DNA of 64,000 nt, taken from IMG/VR virus record IMGVR_UViG_3300035698_007246, positions 1 through 64,000 of that record, one strand, 5' to 3'. Below are positions 24,618 to 43,788 of this stretch, piece after piece. The notes under the pieces were generated by a model. That model worked only from the letters and a program-made list of their open reading frames with translations, ran no database searches and was not told the origin of the DNA. The translations under genes and the position numbers were made by a program. Origin of the DNA: a virus. The stretch's first letter is position 1. The number at the start of each line of letters is the position of its first letter.

Positions 24618-24621
24618 ACAG

Positions 24622-26414: not shown

Positions 26415-26436
26415 TTGAAAATGAAAGGATATAAAA

Positions 26437-28134: not shown

Positions 28135-28192
28135 TGAATGTGTATGTGTGATAACACGAGAAGAGTTGTTGAAGAAACTAATAAAGGGAGTG

Positions 28193-28692
28193 ATGAAATG
28201 ATAAAAGTAATACTGATGATTGGATTACCCGGTAGTGGTAAATCAACAGTGGCTGAGAAAATGTTACTTAGTTCAAAGAAGACAGTGATAGTTAGTCGTG
28301 ACTCTATAAGAGAAATGGTTTGTGGTAAATATAAGAACTACAAATTTACTGACATCAAAGAAGATATGGTAAAGTCAATGGCAACTGCTTGTATTGAAGT
28401 CGCTATTGAACGTGGCTTGAGTGTGATAGTGGATGAAACAAACTTTACAAAGAAGTCCAGAACATACTGGATGAATATGATATCATGCATTTGCGAACGC
28501 AAGGGTGTCAATGTGAAGTACTGTGGTGTGTGGGTTGATACACCAAAGGGTGAGTGTATCAAAAGACGCAAAGCCGACCCTAAAGGAACCAATGATAATT
28601 GGGCTGCCATCATAGGGAATATGTTGAAGTATTGGGATGAACCTGAAGCTGATGAATTTGACAAATTGGAAATTATAACAGACGAGGTATAA
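28193..28692 (+). CDS. polynucleotide 5'-kinase (T4 Pnk kinase-domain-like), no phosphatase domain
   Basis: P-loop ILMIGLPGSGKST, then SRDSIRE and VDETNFTKKSRTYW. Collinear with T4 Pnk kinase domain (ILTIGCPGSGKST...NRDDYRQ...ISDTNLNPERR). Confidence 0.55.
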
Positions 28693-28695
28693 GAG

Positions 28696-29139
28696 ATGTC
28701 TGAACATTTAGAAAAAACTGTAGAAGACGCAATTGTGTTGGCGACACATGCTCTTACTGGACAAAAGGATAAGGTAGGGTTACCAGTAATCCTTCATTCT
28801 ATGAGAGTCATGCTTGCATGTAACACACCAAAACAAATGATGGTTGCTGCTTTACATGATGTGGTAGAAGATTCAACGATTAGTGTTGAAGACCTTCGTA
28901 AAGATGGATATCCAAAAGATGTTTGTGACGCTGTAGACGCAATGAGCAGACGTAATGATGAAACATGGGAAGTATTTATTGAACGTTGTTCTAAGAATTC
29001 ATTGGGAGCTACTGTGAAGCGAATTGACATCTCTGATAACAATAGTCCAATCAGACAGATTGGGTTACCATTGGAGAAACGTGAAAAACTCAGAGCTAAG
29101 TATCAGAAAGCAATCAAATTTTTGGATGGTGTTGAATGA
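28696..29139 (+). CDS. HD-domain phosphohydrolase
   Basis: H...(ILHSMRV)...ALHDVVED...D pattern of HD superfamily. Coupled to the Pnk-like gene. Confidence 0.45.
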   Translation: MSEHLEKTVEDAIVLATHALTGQKDKVGLPVILHSMRVMLACNTPKQMMVAALHDVVEDSTISVEDLRKDGYPKDVCDAVDAMSRRNDETWEVFIERCSKNSLGATVKRIDISDNNSPIRQIGLPLEKREKLRAKYQKAIKFLDGVE

Positions 29140-29486
29140 AAATATTAATACTTGATGATAGTGTATCAAGACAACGCCAATTCAAAAGAAAATATATTGG
29201 GCATGAAGTGACACAGGTTTATACTGCACTTGCATGTGTTCATGCATTACAAACAGATATGTATGACGCAATATTTCTTGACCATGACTTAGGTGGACAA
29301 CAAATGGTTTCATCAGGTCCTGGAACTGGATTTGAAGTTGCTGAGTACTTAAGTAAGAATACAAATCGAGCACCGGAGATTATATTTTTACATTCATTGA
29401 ATACTCCGGGTACTGAAAATATGAAAAAAATACTGGCTACGGCTGGTTTAAATGGAGTTAAAGAACCTTTTTTATGGAAAGAGTGA
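29136..29486 (+). CDS. stand-alone response-regulator receiver (CheY-like) domain protein
   Basis: MKILILDDS (acidic pocket). AIFLDHDLGG (phospho-acceptor Asp position). About 116 aa. Confidence 0.4.
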   Translation: MKILILDDSVSRQRQFKRKYIGHEVTQVYTALACVHALQTDMYDAIFLDHDLGGQQMVSSGPGTGFEVAEYLSKNTNRAPEIIFLHSLNTPGTENMKKILATAGLNGVKEPFLWKE

Positions 29487-29493
29487 GGGAAAT

Positions 29494-29895
29494 ATGTTAA
29501 GTGGAATTTTAATTGTTTGTGGTTTGTGGTTTTTATTTTGGTTTAGTAATTATCTTCATACAAAATTACCTTCAAAATATATGGACGTTTGTTTTCTTGT
29601 GATGTGGGTATTGTTTATAGCTGGTTTGATGTTTACATTTGCAGTACCTTTGAATTATTATACTGCAATTGATAGAAAAATTGAAATGGAAACAACTCAG
29701 AAAGTGTTTGATGAATCAAGAGAACGATTTAAGAATAATGAAAGTCCTGCTGTGTGTTTAGAAGCTGTTGGTATCACTGAGAAGATTGCTGAATTGAATT
29801 CGAAATTAGCAAAATCTCAGTACTATGCAACTGAATCATTCTGGAGATTTTTCATGAATGTTGATGTGGTGATGTCAACAAAACCTATTAATTGA
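29494..29895 (+). CDS. membrane protein
   Basis: Two N-terminal TM helices. Start chosen after GAGGGAAAT RBS. Confidence 0.4.
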   Translation: MLSGILIVCGLWFLFWFSNYLHTKLPSKYMDVCFLVMWVLFIAGLMFTFAVPLNYYTAIDRKIEMETTQKVFDESRERFKNNESPAVCLEAVGITEKIAELNSKLAKSQYYATESFWRFFMNVDVVMSTKPIN

Positions 29896-30012
29896 GGATA
29901 TGATGATTTTTGAATTTGGTTTGACGTTGTGTCAGGTGTGGGTATTTTATATAGCATTACCTGTATTGGTTATATTTGGAACATTATATGTTCTTAGGAA
30001 AAGGAAAACAAA

Positions 30013-30828
30013 ATGAAAATTAATTTTTTAGGTGCTGGTTCTGCATTTACTATGAAGGGATTCCAAACGAATTTCCTCATACAAGAAAACGGAAAGAATT
30101 TATTGATTGACGCTGGTGGAGATATACGATTCTCCTTGGCTAAACAGGGATTATCATATAAAGATATTGATGCTCTGTATTTAAGTCATGAACACGGTGA
30201 CCATTGTGGTGGGGTAGAAACTCTTGCGTCCTGTACATACTTTGACCCAACTGTCAAGGATACTATTCAACTGTTTGGAAATACCAAACTGTTGAGAAAT
30301 ATGTGGAAGAGTACACTATCTGGTGGTTTGAAATCAATTCAAGGTAAGGTAATGGGGTTGGATGATTACTTTGATGTTAATATGATTCCACCTAACAAAC
30401 AGTTTATTTGGGAAGATATAAAATTTGAAATTGTACAATCCGTTCATGTTATGAATGGTCGTGAGATTGTACCATCATATGGGTTAATGATGACTACACC
30501 GGAAAAGGTGAAGGTATATTTCACAGGTGATACCCAATTCAATCCTAATCAGATTATAGATTTCTATGAGGAAGCTGATTTTATTATTCAGGATTGTGAA
30601 ACATATCCTTTTAAGTCTGGTGTTCATGCTCATGTTGAAGAGTTAAAGACATTACCAAAACACATAAAAGAAAAGATGTTGCTTGTTCATATCAATGATA
30701 ATGTCCTTGATGATAATGGTGTTGTAAGTGCTGATTTTATGAACAAGGTCAGTGACTTTTATAGCGTTGCTTGTACAGGATTTGAAGTTGAAATGGCTAT
30801 TATAAAAAAAATAAAAGATAAGTCTTGA
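30013..30828 (+). CDS. metallo-beta-lactamase-fold hydrolase (possible phosphodiesterase)
   Basis: SHEHGDHCGG (HxHxDH). Later H and D residues in MBL order. Confidence 0.5.
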   Translation: MKINFLGAGSAFTMKGFQTNFLIQENGKNLLIDAGGDIRFSLAKQGLSYKDIDALYLSHEHGDHCGGVETLASCTYFDPTVKDTIQLFGNTKLLRNMWKSTLSGGLKSIQGKVMGLDDYFDVNMIPPNKQFIWEDIKFEIVQSVHVMNGREIVPSYGLMMTTPEKVKVYFTGDTQFNPNQIIDFYEEADFIIQDCETYPFKSGVHAHVEELKTLPKHIKEKMLLVHINDNVLDDNGVVSADFMNKVSDFYSVACTGFEVEMAIIKKIKDKS

Positions 30829-30853
30829 CATCACATTTCCCATTAGCTATATT
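30825..30853 (+). promoter_or_regulatory. sigma70-like promoter (TTGACA-N17-TATATT)
   Basis: GTCTTGACATCACATTTCCCATTAGCTATATT. The -35 box overlaps the upstream stop codon. Confidence 0.55.
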
Positions 30854-30918
30854 GGGTTCGTAATAAAAAAGTTACAATTAAGTGACAAATTTTTAAAATT
30901 TTTTGATGGAGGTCGTTT

Positions 30919-31338
30919 ATGACAAATAAAACAATAGTAAGTAATGTATTTCTCGGTGGAACATGTGCAACCAGTCATTGGAGAGAGGACCTAATTCCAA
31001 TGCTTACTAAATCATATTTCAATCCTGTTGTTGATGATTGGACATCGGAATGTCAAGCTGAAGAAATCCGGCAACGTGAAACAGCAAACTTTTGTTTGTT
31101 TGTAATCACTCCTAATCTTGAAGGTTTCTTTTCAATTGCAGAAGTAATTGATGATAGCAACAAACATCCAGAGAAAACAATCTTCTGTGTTCTTCAATCT
31201 GATAGTAAACATGGTGAAGCAACTGAATTCAATGTAAAACAATTAAAATCATTACAAGCTGTTGGAGAGATGGTTCTACGTAATGGTGGTATATGGTGTA
31301 AGAATTTAGAAGAAGTTGCAGCTTGTTTAAATACATAA
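30919..31338 (+). CDS. hypothetical protein
   Basis: 139-aa ORF after GGAGG RBS. No clear motif. Confidence 0.4.
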   Translation: MTNKTIVSNVFLGGTCATSHWREDLIPMLTKSYFNPVVDDWTSECQAEEIRQRETANFCLFVITPNLEGFFSIAEVIDDSNKHPEKTIFCVLQSDSKHGEATEFNVKQLKSLQAVGEMVLRNGGIWCKNLEEVAACLNT

Positions 31339-31400
31339 AATTTTAGGGGAGAAATCCCCAACACCGGAAGGTAAGATGGAAAAAAAGAAAGAGGATTATT

Positions 31401-31715
31401 GTGCGAGAACTACTTGATGAATTGAATTTGCTTGAAGCTGAAGCAAATGAAGACAAGTTGATATGTGATGGGTGTAATGATGTACATCCAGAACTATTTA
31501 CATTGACGGTTAAAGAGAAAACTATTCTTATATGTGAACAGTGTAAAGAAAGTTTATCAGGAATAATAGATAATGAAAACAAAGAAACTGTTCATCAAAT
31601 AGCTTCTGATATGTTTAATGATATTTTTAATTCAAGAATACAAAATAACAGTTCTGGTGATGGTGGTTCTGGATATGATACTGCCCGGTACACTGAAGAC
31701 CATATGGATTGTTAG
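31401..31715 (+). CDS. zinc-ribbon protein
   Basis: CDGCNDVHP...CEQCKE cysteine pairs. GTG start after AAGAGGA RBS. Confidence 0.35.
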   Translation: MRELLDELNLLEAEANEDKLICDGCNDVHPELFTLTVKEKTILICEQCKESLSGIIDNENKETVHQIASDMFNDIFNSRIQNNSSGDGGSGYDTARYTEDHMDC

Positions 31716-31799
31716 GAGAATAAATGATTGAAGATTTAACAACAGATGATTTAGTTGTAATTAGAGATACACCTGTAAAAATAAAAAGAAAACGGAATA

Positions 31800-32426
31800 A
31801 TGGTAACTAAAAAGAATATATGGTATATTGCGGATTTACACTGGGACCACAGACGAATCATTGATTTAAGTGATAGACCATTTCATGATTTAAACCATAT
31901 GCAACATACCATTATTGATAACTGGAATAAAGTCGTTAATGATAGAGATGATGTATATGTGTTGGGTGATACGTGTTTTAGGGTTGATATGTTATTGAAA
32001 TTATTAGGAAAGTTAAATGGACATATTCATTTACTTAGAGGGAATCATGATTATGATGCGGTATCTAAACTTGATAAAGAGTATAAATTTGATAATATAA
32101 TAATTCATCAACAAGATATTGTTATTATAAAAGATGGTAATCGTGGAGTTGTCTTATGTCATTATCCAATTTTTGAATGGATTAAGTGGTATAATGGATA
32201 TTATCATATATTTGCCCACATTCATGGTAATATTAATGGTAATGAAAATAAATCACGAAGTTTTAGACTAAGAGCATATGATGCTGGTGTTGATGTTAAT
32301 AATTATACACCAACAACATTAGATGAATTTATAAATAGAAAATTAACATGTAGTGAATGTATGCATTTTTCTGTTTGTAAATATTCAGATGAAATCAATA
32401 GACATCAGTGTACGTATTTGAAATAG
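31800..32426 (+). CDS. metallophosphoesterase (calcineurin-like)
   Basis: ADLHWDH, LGDTCF (GDxx), RGNHD (GNHD/E). Confidence 0.5.
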   Translation: MVTKKNIWYIADLHWDHRRIIDLSDRPFHDLNHMQHTIIDNWNKVVNDRDDVYVLGDTCFRVDMLLKLLGKLNGHIHLLRGNHDYDAVSKLDKEYKFDNIIIHQQDIVIIKDGNRGVVLCHYPIFEWIKWYNGYYHIFAHIHGNINGNENKSRSFRLRAYDAGVDVNNYTPTTLDEFINRKLTCSECMHFSVCKYSDEINRHQCTYLK

Positions 32427-32486
32427 AAAGGTATTTTGGTGGTTGGAATTGGTATAATTGTAAGAATGTAATTAAGGAGAAAAGAA

Positions 32487-32822
32487 ATGATTTTAGAAAT
32501 TGACCCGGATAGACCGGAAATGTTTGATGAGAAGGTATTAACTGTGGAGTTTGCTATTGTAGATTTCCACGCTTCTTGGTGTGCCCCATGTAAGATATTT
32601 AAAAAGATATTTATTAGGTTTGCAGAAAAATTAAAAGCATATCCACAGATTAAGTTATTCACTATCAACAGTGATAAACACCCGGAGATTTGCTACAAGT
32701 ATAATGTTGCTTCCGTACCAACGCTTATATATTTTAAAAATGGTCGTGTGTTTAAATCCGTTTCAGGGATACAAACTGAAGAGCAGATGGTTGTTGCTAT
32801 TAATGAAATGAAAAAGTCTTAG
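32487..32822 (+). CDS. trx: thioredoxin
   Basis: WCAPCK active-site motif (WCxPC). Size 111 aa. AAGGAGAAAAG RBS. Confidence 0.7.
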   Translation: MILEIDPDRPEMFDEKVLTVEFAIVDFHASWCAPCKIFKKIFIRFAEKLKAYPQIKLFTINSDKHPEICYKYNVASVPTLIYFKNGRVFKSVSGIQTEEQMVVAINEMKKS

Positions 32823-32837
32823 AAAGAGTGGATTGAT

Positions 32838-33470
32838 ATGAAAGCTGCATTGATTCCTTGGAGTGGTGGATTGGACTCAACATATTCAGTGTTGACATAT
32901 CTTAAAAAAGGATACCGAGTTGACGCCCCATATTTCACCATTCAAAACAATGACAGAAAAGTTAAATGTGAAATAGAAACCATTAAAAGATTCAGAGATA
33001 TGGAACCATTCAAAACATATATCGACAATGGTAAATTGTGTGTGTATGAAAGTTCATCAGTTGAAATTTTAACAGACAGTGATTGTGTTGTTGAATTAAC
33101 TCAACCTCCTATATGGTTACTTGCTTCATTTTTTTGTGTTGGGTGGAGAAAACCTGTTGATGAATTGGTGATATCATATGTTTTGAATGATTGTGCCGTT
33201 TCATATGTTGATGATTTGAGACGTGTGTGGGAATCGTTGAGAGGGTTTGTTGGAATTGAAAATAGAAAACATTACCCGGAATTAAAATTTCCATTATTGA
33301 AAACGAATAAATTGAATATCATAGATGGTTATATAAATCAATTTGATAATGGGCATGATATATTGAATAATGTTTGGTGGTGTGAAAATCCAGAGGATGG
33401 AAAACTTTGTGGTTCTTGCACTCCTTGTAAAAGATATAAGGAAATATCTTACTTTGATGATAAATTTTAG
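32838..33470 (+). CDS. PP-loop ATP pyrophosphatase, QueC-like (7-cyano-7-deazaguanine synthase family, tentative)
   Basis: SGGLDST PP-loop near N-terminus. C-terminal Cys cluster CGSCTPC as in QueC zinc site. Confidence 0.4.
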   Translation: MKAALIPWSGGLDSTYSVLTYLKKGYRVDAPYFTIQNNDRKVKCEIETIKRFRDMEPFKTYIDNGKLCVYESSSVEILTDSDCVVELTQPPIWLLASFFCVGWRKPVDELVISYVLNDCAVSYVDDLRRVWESLRGFVGIENRKHYPELKFPLLKTNKLNIIDGYINQFDNGHDILNNVWWCENPEDGKLCGSCTPCKRYKEISYFDDKF

Positions 33471-33510
33471 TTTTCTTTAAAAAGAATTTAAATTTTAATT
33501 AAAAAAACTC

Positions 33511-33539
33511 TTGACTTCGATATGAACATAACATATCTT
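33511..33539 (+). promoter_or_regulatory. sigma70-like promoter (TTGACT, weaker -10)
   Basis: CTCTTGACTTCGATATGAACATAACATATCTT. Confidence 0.4.
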
Positions 33540-33581
33540 TAAAGCGTAATTAAAATTTAAATTCTTTCAAGGGAGATTCAA

Positions 33582-34451
33582 ATGAATAACAACACAAAAG
33601 TAAAATTCGAAGACCGTATAGACACTGCACAAGAAGCACTTGAAGCTGCTGGTTTGAATTATACTGTTGCACAAGCTGAAATTATGAACACTACTACTGG
33701 TACTGTTTCTGATAAATGTAAGTCTTTGTATCGCACTGATACAAATCAAGAGCTTGGTATTGTTGGTAAAAAATATGAACCGGTTCAAAACCACAAAGCA
33801 TTCTCCTACTTCGACACTATTTGTGAAATGCATGGTGCTCGATATTCTGAAGCAATCTCTTTCAATGGTGGAGAGAAAGTAATCCTCAAAGCTGAATTCC
33901 CCCGTCCAGAAGTTGTTGGTCGCAATGATGAGATTAAGAAACAATTCTGTCTTATCAATGGTTTCAATGGTGGTGTTGGAGTCATGGCTACATTTATGGT
34001 CAATAGGCTTATATGTTCTAACGGTCTTCGTGGTACGGTTCGTGACGCAAAGAATTCATTTCGATTCAAACATACTACTAATGTAAATTTTCGTATGGAA
34101 GAGGCTCTCAAGGTACTTGCTGCTGGAACTGATTATTTTAATCAATTCATACGTATGGCAAATGAATTGACACAGAAACAAATTGATTCTGCAATGGTTG
34201 ATAAGTTTTTGGTAAGTGTATTTGGTGACCCTCAATCAACACGTGGTGCAAATAAACAGGAAGAGATTAAAGGGTACATTGAAAGTGGTATTGGTAACTC
34301 TGGAAGCACTGCATGGGATTTATATAATGGTGTAACTGAGTATGTGAGTCATCATCATGGCAAAGATGAAATGAAACGTCTTGAGTATGCTAACTTTGGT
34401 GCTGGTGTTCAACTTTCTGAAACTGCATTTAAAGTTGCGTATAATCTTTAA
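33582..34451 (+). CDS. hypothetical protein
   Basis: 289-aa ORF with strong GGGAGA RBS. Own promoter and terminator, which suggests high expression. Confidence 0.5.
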   Translation: MNNNTKVKFEDRIDTAQEALEAAGLNYTVAQAEIMNTTTGTVSDKCKSLYRTDTNQELGIVGKKYEPVQNHKAFSYFDTICEMHGARYSEAISFNGGEKVILKAEFPRPEVVGRNDEIKKQFCLINGFNGGVGVMATFMVNRLICSNGLRGTVRDAKNSFRFKHTTNVNFRMEEALKVLAAGTDYFNQFIRMANELTQKQIDSAMVDKFLVSVFGDPQSTRGANKQEEIKGYIESGIGNSGSTAWDLYNGVTEYVSHHHGKDEMKRLEYANFGAGVQLSETAFKVAYNL

Positions 34452-34455
34452 TTCA

Positions 34456-34480
34456 AAGGGGAGCAATCCCCTATTTTAAT
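34456..34480 (+). terminator. rho-independent terminator
   Basis: AGGGGAGCAATCCCCT followed by ATTTT. Confidence 0.5.
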
Positions 34481-34528
34481 TGGGAGGTGCAATATGTCAA
34501 ATTTTTTAAAAACATTGGAACCATTATT

Positions 34529-34714
34529 ATGAAAAGAAAAAAATTATTAAATACAAAAATTAAATGCAATTCCTGTAAAAAGGAATTCGCGTATACTGGT
34601 AAGACTGGTGATATTCAATTTAGACCGTATCCATATATGGTAGAAATAGAAGGTGATAACACCAAATTTTGGTTATGTGATGATTGTTGTAATAGAAATG
34701 CTGAGGAAATATGA
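34529..34714 (+). CDS. small zinc-ribbon protein
   Basis: CNSCKKE...CDDCC cysteine pairs. Confidence 0.35.
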   Translation: MKRKKLLNTKIKCNSCKKEFAYTGKTGDIQFRPYPYMVEIEGDNTKFWLCDDCCNRNAEEI

Positions 34715-34995
34715 AAAAACACACAATAGAATGTACTCGAATTATAGTTATGTTAATATCATTGATATTTTATTTGGTTGTGATTGCGTGGAGAATGGAT
34801 GGTGTTGACTTATCAATGATGAATTTGGCATGTGGGGCACCAACGATGTTCTACTTGATGTTTGTGGTAACAAAGAATCGGGAACCGTATCATATATTTT
34901 CTTGTCTGTTAGGGATTCCGTTGTTTATGTTTATGGTAATTGATGTTTTAATTTTAACAATAACAGGTAGTTGGAAAACTACATTGGGGGTGTAA
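34711..34995 (+). CDS. membrane protein
   Basis: Three hydrophobic helices. ATGA coupling. Confidence 0.4.
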   Translation: MKKHTIECTRIIVMLISLIFYLVVIAWRMDGVDLSMMNLACGAPTMFYLMFVVTKNREPYHIFSCLLGIPLFMFMVIDVLILTITGSWKTTLGV

Positions 34996-34999
34996 AGAT

Positions 35000-35209
35000 A
35001 TGAGTAAATTAAATGAAAATGAATTTAAAGAAGTAACTAAAACATTTATAAACAGATTGAGTAATGAAATGTCAACCGCAGGGTGTAATGATTTGGATGA
35101 TGATGAATTTCCTACAACTGTTTGTGAGAAGTTTGATTCTGATTTTGAGTTATTATACGAGTGGAGTAGTATGATAGTTAAACAAAAGGAATTAAAAGAT
35201 GAAAAATGA
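35000..35209 (+). CDS. small acidic protein
   Basis: 69-aa ORF. Confidence 0.35.
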   Translation: MSKLNENEFKEVTKTFINRLSNEMSTAGCNDLDDDEFPTTVCEKFDSDFELLYEWSSMIVKQKELKDEK

Positions 35210-35942
35210 TAGTTTAGGTGATAGAATGAAGGGATATGAACACATATCCAGAATATTATTAACTCGTAGAATGCCACTCATCATCCGTGTGGATGGAAAA
35301 GCGTTCCACTCATTGACAAAGAAAATGGATAAACCATATGATATCACGTTTAGTCACTGCATGATGAGGACTGCACGTTTTCTTCTTGAGAACATTATGG
35401 GTGCAAAGCTCGCTTATGTTCAATCAGATGAGATTTCTGTATTGTTGACAGACTACGATTCATTGTCAACAGAGCCTTGGTTTCAAAAGAATATACAGAA
35501 AATCGTTAGTGTGTCTGCAAGTATGGCGACCATGAAATTTAATGAGTTGTATCGTACACATGTTCATTCATCAAAGAAAGTCAAAGATTATGGATTGTTT
35601 GATTCCAGAGTATTTGTTATTCCGAAGGAAGAGGTGTGTAATTATTTTATTTTTCGACAGCAAGACGCTGTTCGTAATTCCATTCAGGGATTAGGGCAAG
35701 CTCATTTCTCTCACAAAGAACTTCAAGGAAAGTCTTGTAATGCGATTCAGGATATGCTGATGGTTGATAAGAAAATCAATTGGAATGATATAAGCCCATA
35801 TTTTAAACGTGGTGGGTGTTTCTATCGCAACTTAAGCATTGATACTGATGAAAATACAAACAATGTTGTTACTGATGTTGCACCTCCGACATTCACACAA
35901 GACCGTGATTATATTGAGAAGTATTTGTTTCTCGAAAAATAA
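35199..35942 (+). CDS. Thg1-like protein (tRNA-His guanylyltransferase family, 3'-5' nucleotidyltransferase)
   Basis: N-terminal GYEHISRILLTRRMPLIIRVDGKAFHSLTKKMDKPYD ... AYVQSDEISVLL matches the Thg1/TLP palm-domain landmarks (RIDG+FH, carboxylate-bearing SDE). Confidence 0.55.
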   Translation: MKNDSLGDRMKGYEHISRILLTRRMPLIIRVDGKAFHSLTKKMDKPYDITFSHCMMRTARFLLENIMGAKLAYVQSDEISVLLTDYDSLSTEPWFQKNIQKIVSVSASMATMKFNELYRTHVHSSKKVKDYGLFDSRVFVIPKEEVCNYFIFRQQDAVRNSIQGLGQAHFSHKELQGKSCNAIQDMLMVDKKINWNDISPYFKRGGCFYRNLSIDTDENTNNVVTDVAPPTFTQDRDYIEKYLFLEK

Positions 35943-35945
35943 CAC

Positions 35946-35974
35946 TTGACAAGACTTGTACCATTAATTATATT
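35946..35974 (+). promoter_or_regulatory. sigma70-like promoter (TTGACA-N17-TATATT)
   Basis: CACTTGACAAGACTTGTACCATTAATTATATT. Confidence 0.55.
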
Positions 35975-36005
35975 GGTAGGGTAAATTAAATTGAAAGGAA
36001 TTATT

Positions 36006-36338
36006 ATGAATAAAAAGTTATTAGGGTTTTACATTTTTTTGGCGTTGGTTATTTTGAATGCTTCATATAAATCATTCATGGCTCCATCTTTAAATGAAAT
36101 ATCAATCACAAATTTAACAAAAGAATTGAAAGAATTGAAAGAAACAGTTGTTACTATTAAAAAAGAAGCACATGTTATTAAAGAGATGTCTTACTTTGAA
36201 GGTCAACGTGACGCTATTACTGGAGATATTCGTATTGAGGAAATTGAAAAAGGAACCGGGAAATATAAATGGGGTAAATCACCGTGGGATAGCGGTGAAA
36301 GTCCAGTATATAAAATAGATGAGAAATTAACTAATTAA
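36006..36338 (+). CDS. membrane-anchored protein
   Basis: AAAGGA RBS. N-terminal TM helix. Confidence 0.4.
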   Translation: MNKKLLGFYIFLALVILNASYKSFMAPSLNEISITNLTKELKELKETVVTIKKEAHVIKEMSYFEGQRDAITGDIRIEEIEKGTGKYKWGKSPWDSGESPVYKIDEKLTN

Positions 36339-36362
36339 ATAAATTAACAACGGAGGTTCTTT

Positions 36363-36989
36363 ATGAGACCAATTGTTTGGGTAGTTGATACTCAAAAAGA
36401 TTTTATTGATGAAGACGGAAAATTATCTGTGCCTGGTGCAGTTGATATAAGACAAAATATTCTTTCTACACTTTTGACAGCAGAAAAGTTTGATGTTTCT
36501 ATTTATGGAAGCGTGGACGCACATGAAAAAAATGATGTGGAATTTTTAGATTATCCAGTTCATTGTGTGATTGATACAGATGGTCAAAAGAATATACCTG
36601 AAAGTATTATCAGTCACCCGGATAACGTATACTATGTCCCAAACAATGGGCAGGGAGTTGACATGTCTTCGTTTGAAGGGGCACGTCAAGTGTACTTTGA
36701 GAAGCAGTGTGTCAATATATGGGATAAGTGTAAAGGACAGCCCGACAATATTCAAACGCTTCTCCGTATGACTGACATCACTGATGTGTATGTTGTTGGT
36801 GTGGCTACAGAACTATGTGTTCTTGAAGCTGTATTGGGTTTTCTTGCTCGTGACTATAACGTATTCGTTGTTGAAGACGCAACAAAAGGATTAAGTGTTG
36901 ACGGTGAAGTACAAGCTAAAGATAAAATGGCGTCTTTTGGAGCTGAGTTTATCACAACAAAACAATTAGAATGTATGTTTGACAAATAG
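36363..36989 (+). CDS. isochorismatase-family cysteine hydrolase (second copy)
   Basis: VWVVDTQKDFIDEDG (DxQxDF). VVGVATELCVLEA (nucleophile Cys). Confidence 0.5.
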   Translation: MRPIVWVVDTQKDFIDEDGKLSVPGAVDIRQNILSTLLTAEKFDVSIYGSVDAHEKNDVEFLDYPVHCVIDTDGQKNIPESIISHPDNVYYVPNNGQGVDMSSFEGARQVYFEKQCVNIWDKCKGQPDNIQTLLRMTDITDVYVVGVATELCVLEAVLGFLARDYNVFVVEDATKGLSVDGEVQAKDKMASFGAEFITTKQLECMFDK

Positions 36990-37015
36990 TGATAACTTTT
37001 TCAAAGGAGTATTAA

Positions 37016-37864
37016 ATGGATTATAAAAAAGTATATGAAAATATTCAAAATAATTTTAGACAGTATCTATTTAAGTCTGGATTGAAAGCCGTAGTCATTG
37101 GTGAGAGTGGTGGTCTTGATAGTGGTGCGATTAGTGCACTTGCTCGTCCGGTATGCGATGAGCTTGGTGTGAAACTTATTGGTAGATACATTGGAATTGA
37201 AACCAATGGTGATGACGAGTTAGAACGTGCTAATGCTATTGGTAAAGCCTTTTGTCATGATTATAAAGTAATTGATATGTCCCACATCTCTGTAGATTTG
37301 CGTACTTTCGTAGAAGAGATGGAAGGAATGGAAACTGATTTTAAAGCAATACCAAGAAAAATACGTAATGGTAATACTAAAGCCAGACTTCGTATGATTT
37401 ATCTTTACAATCTTGCTCAGTTACATGGTGGAATGGTTCTCAGTACAGATAATTTGACAGAGTTTATGTTAGGGTTTTGGACATTACATGGTGATGTTGG
37501 GGATTATGGGATGATTCAATATCTTAAGAAGACTGATGTGTTTGGTCTTGTTAAGTGGATTGCATTAAATGTCTGTGGTGGCACAGGTAGTGTTTGTCGC
37601 AATGTTTTACTTGCATGTTATGACGCAATACCAAAAGATGGTCTTGGTATTAGTAAATCTGATGTGGAGCAATTAGGTGCAGAAGATTATTATGAAGTTG
37701 ATGACGTTCTATATGGTTTTATTGACGCTGTGATTGATGATGACCTTGGTACGGCAGAGAAGTTGAAACCACATCCTGTTGTCCAAAGACATTTTGCGTC
37801 TCAATTCAAAAGGAGTAATCCATATAATATTCCAGAGGGTGAGCTTACACGGGGGGCAACATAA
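37016..37864 (+). CDS. nadE: NH3-dependent NAD+ synthetase (NadE-like)
   Basis: AVVIGESGGLDSGAISALA PP-loop in the NadE position. Length 282 aa. Confidence 0.55.
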   Translation: MDYKKVYENIQNNFRQYLFKSGLKAVVIGESGGLDSGAISALARPVCDELGVKLIGRYIGIETNGDDELERANAIGKAFCHDYKVIDMSHISVDLRTFVEEMEGMETDFKAIPRKIRNGNTKARLRMIYLYNLAQLHGGMVLSTDNLTEFMLGFWTLHGDVGDYGMIQYLKKTDVFGLVKWIALNVCGGTGSVCRNVLLACYDAIPKDGLGISKSDVEQLGAEDYYEVDDVLYGFIDAVIDDDLGTAEKLKPHPVVQRHFASQFKRSNPYNIPEGELTRGAT

Positions 37865-38034
37865 TGGGGAGAATTGGATTATACGGTGGGTCTTCAACAA
37901 TGATTCGTGAAGCAGTCTGGAACATGGAAACGAAGGGACTCCCACCAAAATTCTTTGATTGGTGTGATGTTAATGTGTTTACTCAAATTTATAACGAAAA
38001 ATTATATACACCTTGTAGTTAGGAAGTGGAAGAG

Positions 38035-39537
38035 ATGTCTGATTTGAAACAAGAAAAAAATGATGTGAGTGCAGTTGAAGCTGAAGCGGTTACAATGACT
38101 GAAGAAAAGATTGTAGTACCGAAGAAGATGTTTAAAAGAGACAGTCTTTTTAAACATCTCTATGACTCATATGGAAACATTTCAAATGTGTTGGGTCTTA
38201 TCGACATGTTATTTAAAAATGGTGAGAATGAAAATGGAGTTTATAAAGCGGTAAAACGATACACACCGTTTGCGTTATTCGGATATGACCTCGGTGGTCG
38301 TATAAAAGATTTTTACAAAAACCAAAACAGAGATGTTTCCGATGATAGGAGCGACAGAATTAGAGCCATTTTGGAAATTGAGCAAACTAATAATTACTGG
38401 ACGCATGATGATGATGGATGTAAATTAAATTCAGAAATTCTTGAATGGTTACTTAAGTCTCCTTTAGTACACAAATTTAAAATATTAAAATATGTTGAGC
38501 TTAATGAAAACAAAGTGATGAGCTATGTTGGTTCTGTAGAGAACTTTTCTGAGATATCAATGGTGATTGAATACAAAGAAGTTAAGATTTTAATAAATTG
38601 CAATGTGTCAGGCGGCAATGATAGTATCAAAAGAAAATTTTGTTCGTTTAATGGTTTATGTGTCGAACGTTCAGTAAAGTTTAATAGATTTGAATTTTTG
38701 AAATCAATCTATCTTGAATACCTTGAGACTCTCAATTTTAGAGAGAACGTATTATCATATGACCATGATATTAAAAAACGTTCTCGTATTAAAGATTGTG
38801 ATTTTGATTTTCAAACATTGAATTTCAAGAAATTGAAGAGTGAAATAATCACCACTCTTGATAATGGGGAACGTAGAGGTTATATTCTTGCTGGGAATCC
38901 CGGAACAGGTAAGACTTCTGTTCTGTTGAGATTGGAAAAGGAATTAACAAAATACCCAATTCTGTATGTGGCTCCTCATAATTTACAGAGTGACAACACA
39001 ATTAGTATTCTTTTCTCGTTTCTAAAAACAATCAGTCCTTGTCTCGTGGTTTTGGAAGACATGGATAGTTATGCACTGAATGATAAGAATGAACGTACTG
39101 GTGCGTTGTTATCTTATATTGATAACAGTAAGGACCCTATCGAGGTAGTGTTCATTGCAACTATTAATGACAGTTGTAAGTTGAATTATTCTATTGTACG
39201 TCCGGGACGTTTTGATGAAATAATTGATGTACAAGAGCCGAAGTTCAATGGAGAAATTTATAATGTGATGAAGACACATTACAATAAACAGAAATTGAAA
39301 AATAAACATTATGCTGATAAAGAGTTTATAAAACAAAGTAAAATTTCTTGGATGACATTCTGGAGACTAAAGAAATATAAATTCACTCAAGCTGAGTATT
39401 GTGAAATAGCTCAGAAAATAATGTTACAAAAATGGAATTTCAATAATAAAACTTTTATTAACAGTCGTGATAAGTTATTGGATTCTCGTAAATCAATTAA
39501 GAAATATAAAAGAGAAAATAACAAAGGTAGAGGTTAA
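38035..39537 (+). CDS. AAA+ ATPase (classic AAA clade)
   Basis: Walker A GNPGTGKT, Walker B VVLEDMD, second-region-of-homology RPGRFDE. Confidence 0.55.
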   Translation: MSDLKQEKNDVSAVEAEAVTMTEEKIVVPKKMFKRDSLFKHLYDSYGNISNVLGLIDMLFKNGENENGVYKAVKRYTPFALFGYDLGGRIKDFYKNQNRDVSDDRSDRIRAILEIEQTNNYWTHDDDGCKLNSEILEWLLKSPLVHKFKILKYVELNENKVMSYVGSVENFSEISMVIEYKEVKILINCNVSGGNDSIKRKFCSFNGLCVERSVKFNRFEFLKSIYLEYLETLNFRENVLSYDHDIKKRSRIKDCDFDFQTLNFKKLKSEIITTLDNGERRGYILAGNPGTGKTSVLLRLEKELTKYPILYVAPHNLQSDNTISILFSFLKTISPCLVVLEDMDSYALNDKNERTGALLSYIDNSKDPIEVVFIATINDSCKLNYSIVRPGRFDEIIDVQEPKFNGEIYNVMKTHYNKQKLKNKHYADKEFIKQSKISWMTFWRLKKYKFTQAEYCEIAQKIMLQKWNFNNKTFINSRDKLLDSRKSIKKYKRENNKGRG

Positions 39538-39832
39538 TGGATGTTAAACAAGTAATTGTTAGGTGACTTGTGATAATATTGATGTTATGTTAGAAAAATC
39601 AGTGTATGGTATTCTAATTAAGTTAATATTATTTTTTAAACAGAATTCATTTTTTATTTTATCATTATGTTGATGTAATTATTTTCAAAGTTTGGGAGGT
39701 TGTGATGTATAAAGGAATTGCTGGTGCTATTAAAATATTGTTTATTATTTGTTGTATAAGGAAATTAGTTGAGATAGCAATATGGTTATTTAACCATGTA
39801 AGTATAAATTGGAAATAAAGGAGTAACAAACA

Positions 39833-40312
39833 ATGATTCAAGAAGCTGTGAACACAATTGTTGAAAAGATTGCAGATGCAGAAGTAAAAGCTGCTGTTAA
39901 AGAAAAAGTTGATAACAGAATTGACTCTTTGGTAACAACTCAAATCAATAAGGTTTTGGAAAAAGGTATTGCAGGTGCAATTGAAAAGACCCTCACTAAA
40001 AAGTTCAACCCAATCTTGAAACAGATTGAGAAAATAGATGTTACGTCTATTGTTGCTAATATTGCTAAAATTAGTCTTGGTGATGAAATTGATGGGATGA
40101 TTACAGAGTTGAGTGGCATTATCAAATTAAAAATCAAAACTGGTATTGAACAAGCAAAACTCATTGAAGTTGACGTATCCTCTGTGAACGTGAAAGCCAA
40201 TGAAATAATTGCGGAAGAGATTGAAGACATCCTTGATGATGATGACGATGTTAAAGATGTGATTCAAAGGGGTGTGGTGAATCATCTTAAAGAAAAATTG
40301 AAGGTGGAATAG
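39833..40312 (+). CDS. hypothetical protein (amphipathic/coiled)
   Basis: GGAG RBS. I/K/E-rich. Confidence 0.45.
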   Translation: MIQEAVNTIVEKIADAEVKAAVKEKVDNRIDSLVTTQINKVLEKGIAGAIEKTLTKKFNPILKQIEKIDVTSIVANIAKISLGDEIDGMITELSGIIKLKIKTGIEQAKLIEVDVSSVNVKANEIIAEEIEDILDDDDDVKDVIQRGVVNHLKEKLKVE

Positions 40313-40314
40313 TT

Positions 40315-40737
40315 ATGGGTTATAAAACATCCTTTAGTGGGTCATTTAAATTAAATAAACAACTTTCAGTAGAACATCTCAAGAAGTACAGAGACTTTTG
40401 TAACACCCGACATGAGAATGAATGGACTGCAAAGGTAGGTTCTATGTATTGTCAGTGGATAGCAAACGAAGATGGTACTGAGATTGAAGCTGAAGGTCAA
40501 ATATTTTATGAGTTTCAGAAATGGATTAAGTTTTTGATTGCTAATTTCTTTACCACTCATGGATATTCTTTAACAGGGATTGTTAAGTGGCAAGGTGAAG
40601 AGATTGGTGATATTGGAATAATTGCAATAAAAGATAATGAAGTAAAGATACTATTCTTTGATTTGTTTGAAAAGTCGGATGATAAAATCTTTGCTTCGAT
40701 GTTTCCCGACCCTGTTACTATTGAAAATAAAAAATAA
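40315..40737 (+). CDS. hypothetical protein
   Basis: Starts 3 nt after previous stop. Confidence 0.45.
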   Translation: MGYKTSFSGSFKLNKQLSVEHLKKYRDFCNTRHENEWTAKVGSMYCQWIANEDGTEIEAEGQIFYEFQKWIKFLIANFFTTHGYSLTGIVKWQGEEIGDIGIIAIKDNEVKILFFDLFEKSDDKIFASMFPDPVTIENKK

Positions 40738-40749
40738 ACATTGACATTG

Positions 40750-40788
40750 AAATCCCCCTGAATTAATTTTAGGGGGATTTCTTTTTAT
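40750..40788 (+). terminator. rho-independent terminator
   Basis: AAATCCCCCT...AGGGGGATTT followed by CTTTTT. Confidence 0.7.
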
Positions 40789-40815
40789 GGTGGTCAAATA
40801 AAAATAAAATAAGTC

Positions 40816-40844
40816 TTGACATTGATTTGACCAAATATTATATT
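40816..40844 (+). promoter_or_regulatory. sigma70-like promoter (TTGACA-N17-TATATT)
   Basis: GTCTTGACATTGATTTGACCAAATATTATATT. Confidence 0.55.
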
Positions 40845-40883
40845 AAGTTTGAAATTTTAAAGTACTTGAAAGTTGGTGGAATA

Positions 40884-41936
40884 ATGAGTCTTTGGTATGA
40901 TGATGTAGTTGAAATTGAAAAACGTTTTAATGATGGTCGTAATAAGCTACAGTTCTTAAATGACCTATTTGATGAAAGAAATATTGCTGGTTATGACCGT
41001 GAAGAAAGACTATCTGAGTTTTATATATTGTATCAATGGAGTTTAGATACATGTGGTAATGCGTTGAAAATTACTAATTATGATAGAATGATTTTGGGTA
41101 AGCCGGATTTTGGATTACCTGATATTTTAATTCAAACAAGAGAGCAGATATTTGAAGAGTTAAAAGCTCATGGGATTGATAGTGTTTGTGCTGAAAGTAG
41201 TTCAGATTTACCTGCACATGATATCCAGTGTTCAGTGTGTGGTGATATGTGGAACATCGACAACTGCACAGACGTTCATGTTGGTAGTGATTATGAGATG
41301 TTTGATTTGAAAGACTATGTTGGGAAACCAATTAGCTTTGTTCAGGAAGAATTAAAAAAGAAACGAAACGCGGAATATAGATTGTTCTGGGGTGACAGCA
41401 ATACCAGTATTAAAAATACAAAATATATTGATTTGACTCCTGAATATAAAAACCCGAAAAGTGATTATCAAAAACGATGTGTCTTGAATAAAAATGGATG
41501 GATTGGTAAAAAATACGCTGATGAACATTTCGAAGGTGAATATATTATTCAGGGGGGTGATGAAGCCAATATCATTATTTATAAGTACAGACACAAAAAA
41601 TGCAAACGTAATAGTATGGTGGAAAACAATTTAGAATTCTTTAAAGAAATTTTCAAAGAAGCAGGAATAGAAATTGTTAAAATAGCAAACATTCGGAATC
41701 AATATTGTGATTGTATTGAATGCTCACCGTGGTTAACTGTTACAACTAAAAAGGGTGATATCACTCTTGGGTGGAGAAAACGAGTAATCAATATAGATTT
41801 TGGTGCTATGAATGATACAGTTGATATACCGACTGTGTTTGCAAAGGAAGACGTGACAACAAGTTCTAATTCTATTCATGCATGGGGTAAAGACAAATGC
41901 GTTGAATATTTGAAGACATTTTATAATTTAATATAA
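40884..41936 (+). CDS. hypothetical Cys-rich protein
   Basis: ATG after GGTGGA RBS, downstream of the promoter. The ATG at 40827 lies inside the promoter. Confidence 0.45.
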   Translation: MSLWYDDVVEIEKRFNDGRNKLQFLNDLFDERNIAGYDREERLSEFYILYQWSLDTCGNALKITNYDRMILGKPDFGLPDILIQTREQIFEELKAHGIDSVCAESSSDLPAHDIQCSVCGDMWNIDNCTDVHVGSDYEMFDLKDYVGKPISFVQEELKKKRNAEYRLFWGDSNTSIKNTKYIDLTPEYKNPKSDYQKRCVLNKNGWIGKKYADEHFEGEYIIQGGDEANIIIYKYRHKKCKRNSMVENNLEFFKEIFKEAGIEIVKIANIRNQYCDCIECSPWLTVTTKKGDITLGWRKRVINIDFGAMNDTVDIPTVFAKEDVTTSSNSIHAWGKDKCVEYLKTFYNLI

Positions 41937-41964
41937 TTCAAAAATCTTTTTCAAAGGGGGATGT

Positions 41965-42477
41965 ATGAATAATAGTTGGTTAATGTATTGGATATTAATA
42001 CTGGTTATAATGTTTGGTGCATTTGATTCTGATGGTGCAACATTTTCAGGAAACAATTATCCAGACTCACTTAAATTGTATGAACCAATTAAAAGTGATT
42101 ATCAAAATAAGCATAGACCGTTCATTGATGTGGACTTCTATCTTAAGGGTAAAGTAATTGAGTCAAAAGAGACAACAATTTCTGATGATTATGTGCCTGT
42201 GACATACTATTGGTTGTTTGTTAATACAAAAAAGGGAATTGCTAATTGTAAAGTTGTTGATAGTATTTATAACAAATATGATGTTGGTAATAAAATTGGT
42301 GTGGATACAGCAAAACCTAAAGCCGAAATAAATCAGGGAAATTCTGACAATACACAACCACCACAAGATGATGATGTCCGTGGTTATGGTATCATAGTAA
42401 CTATATTTATTGCGTTTATAAGTGCTGTGTTATTATTTGGAATAATTACATTTTTTATATCAATGTTGGAGGCGTAA
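41965..42477 (+). CDS. membrane protein (N- and C-terminal TM helices)
   Basis: GGGGGA RBS. Hydrophobic termini. Confidence 0.4.
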   Translation: MNNSWLMYWILILVIMFGAFDSDGATFSGNNYPDSLKLYEPIKSDYQNKHRPFIDVDFYLKGKVIESKETTISDDYVPVTYYWLFVNTKKGIANCKVVDSIYNKYDVGNKIGVDTAKPKAEINQGNSDNTQPPQDDDVRGYGIIVTIFIAFISAVLLFGIITFFISMLEA

Positions 42478-42478
42478 T

Positions 42479-43699: not shown

Positions 43700-43744
43700 T
43701 AATATGTTTTTTAAAATATCATTTATGTTATTAAAATTTCAATA

Positions 43745-43753
43745 TGGTATAAT
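43745..43753 (+). promoter_or_regulatory. extended -10 promoter (TGGTATAAT)
   Basis: TGnTATAAT 36 nt upstream of the next ATG. No -35 needed. Confidence 0.4.
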
Positions 43754-43788
43754 ATATATTTGTTTAAAAATGAATAGGAGATATAATT

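What the first reader, a model, noticed from the sequence alone, without database searches (positions are those of the whole stretch)
35199..35942. Thg1-like 3'-5' nucleotidyltransferase in a phage
The RIDG..FH and SDE landmarks of the Thg1 family are visible by eye. Thg1-like proteins are typical of eukaryotes, archaea and a few bacteria. A phage copy implies 5'-end tRNA editing or repair during infection, a rarely reported phage function.
Basis: partly seen in the sequence, partly recalled or inferred. Interest (0 to 1): 0.7.

Follow-up and report, generated by a model that had tools for sequence, protein, structure and literature searches.

The report
Thg1-like tRNA 5'-end repair enzyme, phage copy
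The gene is a genuine, apparently active Thg1-like 3'-5' RNA polymerase in a large uncultivated phage, most likely one tool in a tRNA-repair kit, but such phage genes are already catalogued and discussed in the literature, so it is an ordinary new member of a known kind.

Summary
The ORF at 35199..35942 (+, 247 aa) is real and is a Thg1-family enzyme. It scores 109 bits on Pfam PF04446 (cut-off 29), E 1.6e-91 on PHROG 4717 "tRNA-His guanylyltransferase", and 48% identity over its full length to the crystallised Bacillus thuringiensis Thg1-like protein (BtTLP). The AlphaFold model (pLDDT 90.8) has only Thg1/TLP structures as its 32 significant PDB matches. All catalytic residues are kept. The eukaryote-specific HINNLYN anticodon-reading motif is replaced by the TLP-type AVRNSIQG, so this is a BtTLP-type enzyme, not a dedicated tRNA-His G-1 adder. 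The literal motif is RVDGKAFH, not RIDG.

The host sequence is a large uncultivated phage of at least about 120 kb. The same genome encodes a CCA-adding enzyme, an RlaP nucleotidyltransferase, an RNA ligase, a polynucleotide-kinase-like kinase and two metallophosphoesterases. That fits templated 5'-end tRNA repair within a scattered RNA-repair toolkit. No tRNA gene lies in the 78.5 kb examined.

Phage Thg1-like genes are not new. 164 GenBank phage records carry one, usually annotated, and papers from 2013, 2018 and 2021 discuss them, including as RNA-repair components. No experimental test of a phage copy was found.

Verdict: observation confirmed, interpretation supported, novelty low.

The parts
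35199..35942 (+). Thg1-like protein (TLP) gene, 247 aa, 3'-5' nucleotidyltransferase
   Evidence: ORF; PF04446 109 bits; phrog_4717 1.6e-91; PDB 4kgk 3.9e-71; 48% identity to BtTLP; AF2 pLDDT 90.8; Foldseek top hits all Thg1/TLP
35286..35309 (+). R30-VDGKAF-H37 motif. D32 is the first metal-binding carboxylate (BtTLP D30) and R30 corresponds to BtTLP R28 (NTP triphosphate contact)
   Evidence: Alignment to 4kgk; R30, D32, G33 and F36 invariant in 41 homologues; residue roles from PMC3701042
35424..35432 (+). S76-D77-E78 motif: second metal carboxylate D77 (BtTLP D75), third carboxylate E78 (BtTLP E76), activation-step serine S76
   Evidence: roles from PMC3701042
35655..35690 (+). R153-QQDAVRNSIQ-G164: the TLP-type version of the segment that is RQADCHINNLYN in human Thg1. 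N160 is kept; the anticodon-stacking His of HINNLYN is replaced by V158
   Evidence: phmmer alignment to human THG1 3otb and to BtTLP; HINNLYN/H154 role from PMC6471195
31800..32426 (+). Calcineurin-like metallophosphoesterase; a recurrent neighbour of TLP genes in other viral contigs (possible partner, inferred)
   Evidence: phrog_547 6.8e-36; PDB 1xm7 1.3e-8; homologue within 10 kb of the TLP in 11/57 IMG/VR loci, adjacent in 3 lineages
28138..28692 (+). P-loop kinase of polynucleotide-kinase type (possible RNA 5'-end healing; inferred toolkit member)
   Evidence: phrog_505 'polynucleotide kinase' 1.2e-28; AAA_33 1.2e-18
22914..23756 (+). Second metallophosphoesterase (possible 3'-end healing; inferred toolkit member)
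   Evidence: PF00149 1.3e-7; phrog_1649 1e-30
18604..19650 (+). RNA ligase (sealing enzyme of the RNA-repair toolkit); its start overlaps the end of a cpYpsA SLOG-domain gene (18107..18607)
   Evidence: phrog_548 8.6e-56; PF09414 6e-12 and PF12694 3.8e-23
10279..11223 (+). RlaP-family Pol-beta nucleotidyltransferase (adds 1-2 nt to damaged RNA 3' ends in characterised members)
   Evidence: PF10127 4.6e-8, 33.5 bits vs cut-off 23; phrog_388 6.1e-37; biochemistry in PMC12776372

Best explanation
The gene encodes an active bacterial-type Thg1-like protein (TLP), a palm-domain, two-metal 3'-5' RNA polymerase. By analogy with BtTLP, it would activate the 5'-monophosphate of a tRNA that has lost one or more 5' nucleotides, using ATP or GTP. 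It would then add the missing nucleotides one at a time, templated by Watson-Crick pairing with the 3' strand of the acceptor stem, and so restore a full acceptor stem. In this large phage it most likely acts during infection as the 5'-end restoring member of a dispersed tRNA/RNA-repair toolkit. The other members would be a CCA-adding enzyme for 3' ends, an RlaP nucleotidyltransferase, a PNK-like kinase, phosphoesterases and an RNA ligase. Together they would keep the host tRNA pool usable when host nucleases or defence systems damage it. Shown here: family membership, intact active site, fold, TLP-type rather than Thg1-type specificity motif, phage setting, and co-occurrence with other RNA-repair genes. 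Inferred: the substrate (tRNA 5' ends), cooperation with the other enzymes, and the counter-defence purpose. The confidence of 0.6 refers to this in-vivo role; that the protein is a Thg1/TLP-family enzyme is about 0.98 certain.
For: Family and fold. Active site: D32, D77, E78, R30, E14, R137, K101, S76 and N160 are invariant in 41 homologues; K45 is K in 34 and R in 7; they map onto the BtTLP and hTHG1 catalytic residues described in PMC3701042. TLP type: AVRNSIQG stands in place of HINNLYN (PMC6471195). The closest characterised enzyme, BtTLP, adds all four nucleotides to 5'-truncated tRNAs far more efficiently than N-1 to tRNA-His, and also acts on tRNA-Phe (PMC3061083). Same genome: tRNA nucleotidyltransferase (PF01743 and PF12627; phrog_2244 9.1e-62) on a contig 100% identical to the window; RlaP; RNA ligase; PNK-like kinase; two metallophosphoesterases. 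In other viral contigs the TLP gene lies within 10 kb of tRNA genes in 16/57 loci, and tRNA genes lie on both sides of it in six, linking it to tRNA biology. Iyer et al. 2021 independently place phage Thg1 in RNA repair (PMC7824862).
Against: No experiment on any phage TLP was found. The repair genes here are scattered over about 40 kb, not an operon. Across 57 viral loci no repair gene is a constant neighbour: RNA ligase 1, RlaP 3, CCA enzyme 3, kinase 4. No host nuclease that trims tRNA 5' ends as a phage defence was identified. No tRNA genes are present in the 78.5 kb examined, so the substrate cannot be read from this genome.
Confidence: 0.6

Rival explanations
1. It performs the name-giving reaction: adding or restoring G-1 on tRNA-His (host or phage-encoded), templated by C73, so that histidyl-tRNA synthetase can still charge it during infection.
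For: Database annotations all say 'tRNA-His guanylyltransferase'. BtTLP adds G-1 opposite C73 with kcat/KM equal to yeast Thg1 and complements yeast thg1-delta (PMC3061083). Loss of G-1 is simply the one-nucleotide case of 5' truncation, so this overlaps the main explanation.
Against: The HINNLYN anticodon-recognition motif is absent (PMC6471195). In Bacteria G-1 is genome-encoded (PMC3061083). Both tRNA-His genes found beside TLP genes in viral contigs already encode G at -1 (L003, L049). Phage BM10 has a TLP and 17 tRNAs, none of them tRNA-His (PMC6292376). No tRNA-His gene lies in the 78.5 kb examined here.
Confidence: 0.2
2. It completes a mitochondrion-like 5'-editing pathway for phage-encoded tRNAs whose genes carry mismatches in the first three acceptor-stem pairs.
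For: This is the proven role of Dictyostelium TLP3 (PMC6471195). TLP genes often sit inside phage tRNA arrays.
Against: Of 130 tRNAs within 10 kb of TLP genes in viral contigs, only 8 showed a mismatch at pairs 1-3, and most of those look like register errors of my parsing or doubtful ARAGORN calls. This phage shows no tRNA genes in 78.5 kb.
Confidence: 0.04
3. It acts on a non-tRNA substrate, for example extending or activating (App-/Gpp-) the 5' ends of other phage or host RNAs, or priming. Its tRNA annotation would then be misleading for the phage context.
For: TLPs recognise RNA broadly and one Dictyostelium TLP has non-tRNA roles (PMC6471195, PMC5041481 abstract). BtTLP accumulates App- and Gpp-activated 5' ends. 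In 41/57 viral loci, and here, no tRNA gene is nearby. A metallophosphoesterase is a recurrent neighbour.
Against: No positive evidence for any particular alternative substrate. Strong sequence conservation with BtTLP extends to the C-terminal region, which forms a tRNA-binding domain in Thg1 by my recollection; no call tested that. The association with tRNA arrays in a quarter of loci also argues against it.
Confidence: 0.12

Closest known systems
Bacillus thuringiensis Thg1-like protein, BtTLP (PDB 4KGK/4KGM)
   Same: 48% identity over 242 residues with only a 4-residue gap. Same length class (247 vs about 245 aa). All catalytic and NTP-binding residues match. Same fold (TM 0.84/0.90). Same TLP-type RQQDAxxNSI segment.
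   Different: Encoded by a phage rather than a bacterial chromosome. BtTLP M158, which stacks on the purine, is G164 here; in 41 homologues that column is G in 23 and M in 12. The loop at 120-130 and the 211-222 segment differ and are the least confident parts of the model. Biochemistry untested.
Phage 'tRNA-His guanylyltransferase' family, PHROG 4717 (e.g. Bacillus phages Bc431v3 gp143, BM10 gp154, Eldridge gp158, PK-3; Fusobacterium phage Fnu1; Lak megaphages; jumbo phages)
   Same: Full-length profile match, E 1.6e-91. 164 GenBank phage records carry a homologue at 29-53% identity. It is a stand-alone gene among early/metabolic genes of large phages.
   Different: No close relative among cultured phages: best 52.7% at protein level, and no nucleotide match. 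Many of those phages carry tRNA arrays, whereas none is seen in 78.5 kb here.
Eukaryotic Thg1 (human THG1, yeast and Candida Thg1; PDB 3OTB, 3WC1, 7CV1)
   Same: Same palm fold and two-metal active site (E about 1e-8 by sequence).
   Different: Only about 20% identity. Lacks the HINNLYN motif that reads the GUG anticodon (PMC6471195), so non-templated G-1 addition specific to tRNA-His is not expected.
Phage T4 Pnk/Rnl1 and bacterial Pnkp/Hen1, RtcB, RlaP RNA-repair systems
   Same: Functional logic: phage enzymes that reverse nuclease damage to tRNAs. This genome has the ligase, kinase, phosphoesterase, RlaP and CCA-adding parts.
   Different: Those systems heal and seal anticodon-loop breaks or restore 3' ends. 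The TLP would restore 5'-terminal nucleotides, a step none of them performs. Here the genes are dispersed, not an operon.

Membership tests
Thg1/TLP superfamily (Pfam PF04446) | Match to the family profile above the curated threshold over the whole catalytic domain | tested here: met
   109.4 bits vs cut-off 29.2, profile positions 2-130 of 130. The C-terminal domain PF14413 scores only 18.8 bits, below its 26.3 cut-off.
Thg1/TLP superfamily (Pfam PF04446) | Three conserved carboxylates (hTHG1 D29/D76/E77 = BtTLP D30/D75/E76) | tested here: met
   D32, D77 and E78 align to them and are invariant in 41 homologues. Roles from PMC3701042.
Thg1/TLP superfamily (Pfam PF04446) | Activation and nucleotidyl-transfer residues (hTHG1 K43, S74, N158; R27, K95, R130; BtTLP E12, R28, R131) | tested here: met
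   K45, S76, N160, R30, K101, R137 and E14 are present. All are invariant in the alignment except K45 (K in 34, R in 7).
Thg1/TLP superfamily (Pfam PF04446) | Polymerase-like palm fold | tested here: met
   AF2 pLDDT 90.8, pTM 0.89. All 32 PDB matches with E<=0.001 are Thg1/TLP chains. The next, non-significant matches include GGDEF and Cas10 palm proteins.
Thg1/TLP superfamily (Pfam PF04446) | 3'-5' nucleotide addition activity; tetrameric assembly | not testable with these tools
   Needs biochemistry; no multimer model was run.
Bona fide (eukaryote-type) Thg1, the tRNA-His G-1 adding enzyme | HINNLYN motif with the His that stacks on anticodon base G36 | tested here: not met
   The aligned segment is AVRNSIQG, with V158 in place of the His. 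Motif role from PMC6471195.
Bona fide (eukaryote-type) Thg1, the tRNA-His G-1 adding enzyme | Non-templated G-1 addition opposite A73 | not testable with these tools
   BtTLP does this only weakly (kcat/KM 108 vs 5500 M-1 s-1; PMC3061083).
Bacterial/archaeal-type TLP (BtTLP-like 5'-end repair enzymes) | Closer to TLPs than to Thg1 in sequence and structure; TLP-type RQQDAxxNSI segment | tested here: met
   4kgk E 3.9e-71 vs human, yeast and Candida Thg1 at 1e-8 to 1e-7. Foldseek 2.5e-30 vs about 1e-15.
Bacterial/archaeal-type TLP (BtTLP-like 5'-end repair enzymes) | Kinetic preference for templated repair of 5'-truncated tRNAs of any identity | not testable with these tools
   Inferred from BtTLP only (PMC3061083).
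PHROG 4717 (phage tRNA-His guanylyltransferase) | Full-length profile match, encoded in a phage genome | tested here: met
   E 1.6e-91, residues 3-244 on profile positions 2-240 of 250. Phage context.

The most novel reading that the evidence does not exclude
Phage TLPs, often paired with a small calcineurin-like phosphoesterase, are dedicated counter-defence enzymes. They would reverse a still-undescribed bacterial immunity mechanism that disables translation by trimming tRNA 5' ends. In this phage they would complete an 'all-ends' tRNA repair kit: 5' end by the TLP, 3' end by the CCA-adding enzyme and RlaP, internal breaks by kinase, phosphoesterase and ligase.
Probability: 0.15. Interest if true: 0.65.

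Novelty: new member of a known kind. Interest (0 to 1): 0.2.

Why it matters
In itself it matters little. It adds one more divergent sequence to a catalogued phage gene family whose presence in large phages has been noted since 2013 and interpreted as RNA repair since 2021.

The open point is general rather than specific to this window. No phage TLP has been tested, and no host process that produces 5'-truncated tRNAs during infection is known. This genome could serve as a model for asking whether phages repair every kind of tRNA end damage, because it combines the TLP with a CCA-adding enzyme, RlaP, RNA ligase, a PNK-like kinase and phosphoesterases, and also carries NAD-salvage, Apyc1-like and NADAR genes. 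That would make it a reasonable candidate for a biochemical or genetic test of the idea.

Tried and rejected
- **Nucleotide search against GenBank phages.** Megablast of 33-39 kb found no match. The phage has no cultured close relative, so no annotation could be transferred.
- **NCBIfam scan of the TLP.** No hit; this is uninformative.
- **tRNA genes as candidate substrates.** None were found in the window or in the flanking contig sequence. The substrate question could not be settled from this genome.
- **5'-editing hypothesis.** I tested it on 130 tRNAs beside TLP genes in IMG/VR loci. Acceptor stems are normally paired, so I rejected it.
- **tRNA-His G-1 hypothesis.** Only two tRNA-His genes were available, and both encode G-1. 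Phage Eldridge has no tRNA-His in its first 50 kb. BM10 has none among its 17 tRNAs. I downgraded the hypothesis but did not exclude it.
- **Conserved operon partner.** I looked across 57 viral loci and 3 cultured phages. There is none, apart from a loose and partly adjacent link with a metallophosphoesterase.
- **Promoter and terminator scan.** Counts were not above the shuffled expectation. I used it only as a weak hint of transcription-unit boundaries.
- **Walking to the genome ends.** This failed because only window-encoded proteins can be looked up. One end protein was not on record.

Full report
**Observation.**
- The window holds an ATG-started ORF at exactly 35199..35942 on the + strand, 247 codons plus stop. 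AAGGA lies about 8 nt upstream, and the ORF overlaps the preceding small ORF by 11 nt.
Residues 30-37 read RVDGKAFH (nt 35286-35309), not literally RIDG..FH. Residues 76-78 read SDE (nt 35424-35432).
- The short minus-strand ORFs overlapping this region are almost certainly spurious. Nearly every ORF of 100 aa or more in the 64-kb window lies on the + strand, and the few minus-strand ones overlap + strand ORFs. The window has 32% G+C and a strong, uniform GC skew of about +0.3.

**Family, active site and fold.**
- The protein matches Pfam PF04446 (Thg1) at E 1.5e-31, 109.4 bits against a gathering cut-off of 29.2, over the entire profile.
- It matches PHROG 4717 "tRNA-His guanylyltransferase" at E 1.6e-91 over its full length.
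- Among solved structures the best match is the Bacillus thuringiensis Thg1-like protein BtTLP (4KGK/4KGM), E 3.9e-71, with 48% identity over 242 residues and a single 4-residue gap.
- The archaeal TLP (5AXK) and the human, yeast and Candida Thg1 proteins follow at E 1e-11 to 1e-7.
- I mapped the residues that Hyde et al. describe for BtTLP and human THG1 (PMC3701042) through that alignment:
  - the three carboxylates are D32, D77 and E78;
  - the NTP-contacting and structural residues are R30, R137 and E14;
  - the activation-step residues are K45, S76 and N160;
  - the transfer-step lysine is K101.
- All of these are invariant in an alignment with 40 homologues of 53-79% identity, except K45, which is K in 34 sequences and R in 7.
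- An AlphaFold2 model built on that alignment has mean pLDDT 90.8 and pTM 0.89.
- Foldseek against the PDB returns 32 significant matches, every one a Thg1 or TLP chain. The best is BtTLP at E 2.5e-30 with TM 0.84/0.90. The next, non-significant matches include GGDEF cyclases and Cas10, which are other palm-domain enzymes.

**Which kind of Thg1-family enzyme.**
- Eukaryotic Thg1 carries the motif HINNLYN. Its histidine stacks on anticodon base G36, which makes the enzyme specific for tRNA-His (PMC6471195).
- In the alignment to human THG1 this segment is AVRNSIQG, and BtTLP has ASKNSISM. The phage protein is therefore a TLP, not a bona fide Thg1.
- BtTLP adds nucleotides strictly by Watson-Crick templating. 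It repairs tRNAs lacking 5' nucleotides much more efficiently than it adds N-1 to tRNA-His. It also works on tRNA-Phe, and it uses ATP or GTP for 5' activation (PMC3061083).
- That is the basis for the mechanism I propose. It rests on homology, not on a test.

**Setting.**
- The window has no nucleotide-level relative among 50,697 GenBank phage records.
- Its proteins do hit phage families:
  - NAD-dependent DNA ligase, a UvrD-type helicase, an RNA ligase, and phrog_2426, which tblastn finds in 504 phage records including PBS1/AR9;
  - an HNH homing endonuclease and phrog_388;
  - a phage-family sigma factor.
- ENA metagenome contigs (analysis ERZ27316532, the identifier given in the tool's sample column) are 100% identical to the window and extend it on both sides.
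- About 7 kb beyond the right end lies a virion structural protein (phrog_1383, 4.3e-31).
- The right-hand contig is 67.6 kb and overlaps the window by only 4.5 kb. The genome is therefore at least about 120-135 kb. It is a large, uncultivated phage.

**RNA-repair context.**
- The left-hand contig runs 6.7 kb past the window start. Between about 2.1 and 0.6 kb upstream of the start it encodes a 495-aa tRNA nucleotidyltransferase, a CCA-adding / poly(A) polymerase family protein (PF01743 and PF12627; phrog_2244 9.1e-62).
- Inside the window are the following:
  - an RlaP-family nucleotidyltransferase (10279..11223), whose characterised members add one or two nucleotides to damaged RNA 3' ends (PMC12776372);
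  - an RNA ligase (18604..19650), whose start overlaps the end of a cpYpsA SLOG-domain gene;
  - a polynucleotide-kinase-like P-loop kinase (28138..28692);
  - two calcineurin-like phosphoesterases (22914..23756 and 31800..32426).
- Together with the TLP these cover the 5' end, the 3' end and internal breaks of a damaged tRNA.
- The genes are dispersed over about 40 kb, so cooperation between them is inferred.
- A terminator-like hairpin at 34457-34472 and an 11/12 sigma-70-like promoter at 35946-35974 bracket the TLP and three small upstream ORFs. However, such consensus sites are no more frequent here than in shuffled sequence.

**Comparative evidence on function.**
- A pattern scan of IMG/VR returned 57 viral loci encoding relatives of 42-58% identity.
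- In 16 of them tRNA genes lie within 10 kb. In six the TLP gene has tRNA genes on both sides, including amber-suppressor tRNA(CUA) genes. This ties the family to tRNA biology.
- The acceptor stems of the 130 neighbouring tRNAs are normally paired. Only 8 show a mismatch at pairs 1-3, mostly from register errors in my parsing or doubtful ARAGORN calls. A mitochondrion-like 5'-editing role is therefore unlikely.
- Both neighbouring tRNA-His genes already encode G at -1, one with C73 and one with A73.
- Phage BM10 has a TLP and 17 tRNAs, none of them tRNA-His (PMC6292376).
- The present genome shows no tRNA gene in 78.5 kb.
- Maturation of a phage-encoded tRNA-His is therefore not the general role. 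Restoration of G-1 on host tRNA-His remains a special case of 5' repair.
- No RNA-repair gene is a constant neighbour within 10 kb: RNA ligase 1/57, RlaP 3/57, CCA enzyme 3/57, kinase 4/57. Three cultured phages show the TLP as a stand-alone gene among hypothetical proteins.
- The neighbours found most often within 10 kb, in 11/57 loci each, are homologues of the NAD-dependent DNA ligase and of the 31800..32426 phosphoesterase. Only the phosphoesterase is ever immediately adjacent. Its 11 loci represent about six or seven lineages, and it sits 9-237 nt from the TLP gene in three of them.

**Novelty.**
- The family is large: 5,656 clusters at 50% identity with E<=1e-3, and 1,363 with E<=1e-30, in a library of 1.84 billion representatives.
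- 164 GenBank phage records carry a homologue, mostly annotated as tRNA-His guanylyltransferase. They include Bacillus Herelleviridae, Lak megaphages, Caulobacter, Mycobacterium and many jumbo phages.
- The gene was singled out in phage Bc431v3 in 2013 (PMC3601020) and in BM10 in 2018.
- Iyer et al. 2021 list Thg1 among the end-restoring nucleotidyltransferases of jumbo-phage RNA repair (PMC7824862).
- My literature searches found no experimental study of a phage TLP.
- This finding is therefore a correct identification of a new, divergent member of a known kind. The closest sequence anywhere is 79% identical, and the closest in a cultured phage is 53%.

**Verdict.**
- Interest is 0.2.

Noticed in passing
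window 31800..32426 (+); L007:9438-9992, L011:9453-9992, L051:11018-11464, L059:760-1257: A small calcineurin-like metallophosphoesterase (phrog_547) recurs near TLP genes. It lies within 10 kb in 11/57 IMG/VR loci (about 6-7 lineages) and 9-237 nt from the TLP gene in three lineages. Here it is 2.8 kb upstream. It is absent near the TLP in three cultured phages checked. It may be a functional partner (5'-end or pyrophosphate processing?).
   Followed up: partly
L066:4692-6179 (about 2.1-0.6 kb upstream of window position 1, on ENA contig k141_1175258, which matches window 1-11911 at 100%): A 495-aa tRNA nucleotidyltransferase (CCA-adding / poly(A) polymerase family; PF01743 and PF12627; phrog_2244 9e-62) sits just outside the window. 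The phage therefore has both 3'-end and 5'-end tRNA-restoring enzymes.
   Followed up: partly
window 36363..36989, 37016..37864, 42479..43699, 4395..6302: A Preiss-Handler-type NAD salvage set: isochorismatase/nicotinamidase-like protein, NAD synthase NadE and nicotinate phosphoribosyltransferase, plus an NAD-dependent DNA ligase. I saw no NaMN adenylyltransferase. It could counter NAD-depleting host defences.
   Followed up: no
window 30013..30828; 16900..17391; 12636..13568: An Apyc1-like metallo-beta-lactamase (anti-Pycsar family PF23023, 102.7 bits vs cut-off 50), a NADAR domain protein (128 bits) and a patatin-like phospholipase. These are candidate anti-defence or conflict genes in the same early-gene region.
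   Followed up: no
window 18107..18607 and 18604..19650: A circularly permuted YpsA SLOG-domain gene (PF12694, 3.8e-23) overlaps the start of the RNA ligase gene by 4 nt, which suggests translational coupling of a nucleotide-binding or sensor domain with the ligase.
   Followed up: no
window 32838..33470 and 33582..34451: A QueC-like protein (weak Pfam hit; phrog_1550 3.1e-23) lies next to a DUF932 protein. This may relate to 7-deazaguanine modification; I did not examine it.
   Followed up: no
window 1..64000: Nearly all ORFs of 100 aa or more are on the + strand, G+C is 28-34%, and GC skew is uniformly strong and positive (+0.21 to +0.33 in every 4-kb bin). No tRNA gene was found in the window or in 14.5 kb of flanks.
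   Followed up: partly
window 53281..53793 and 54005..54595: Two neighbouring paralogous ORFs hit the same PHROGs (17714, 36724), and DNA segments around 53449-54458 are 79-86% identical to each other. This looks like a local tandem duplication of a small gene of unknown function.
   Followed up: no
L024, L029, L030, L032, L034, L044, L049 (IMG/VR loci): TLP genes in several large viral contigs sit inside or next to tRNA arrays that include one or two tRNA(CUA) amber-suppressor genes (called 'Pyl' by ARAGORN). This suggests stop-codon-recoded phages that also carry a TLP.
   Followed up: no
L003:9872-9947: A viral tRNA-His gene 8.7 kb from a TLP gene has an encoded G at -1 but an A73 discriminator (eukaryote-like), so G-1 would be unpaired. 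Whether RNase P would retain it is unclear.
   Followed up: no
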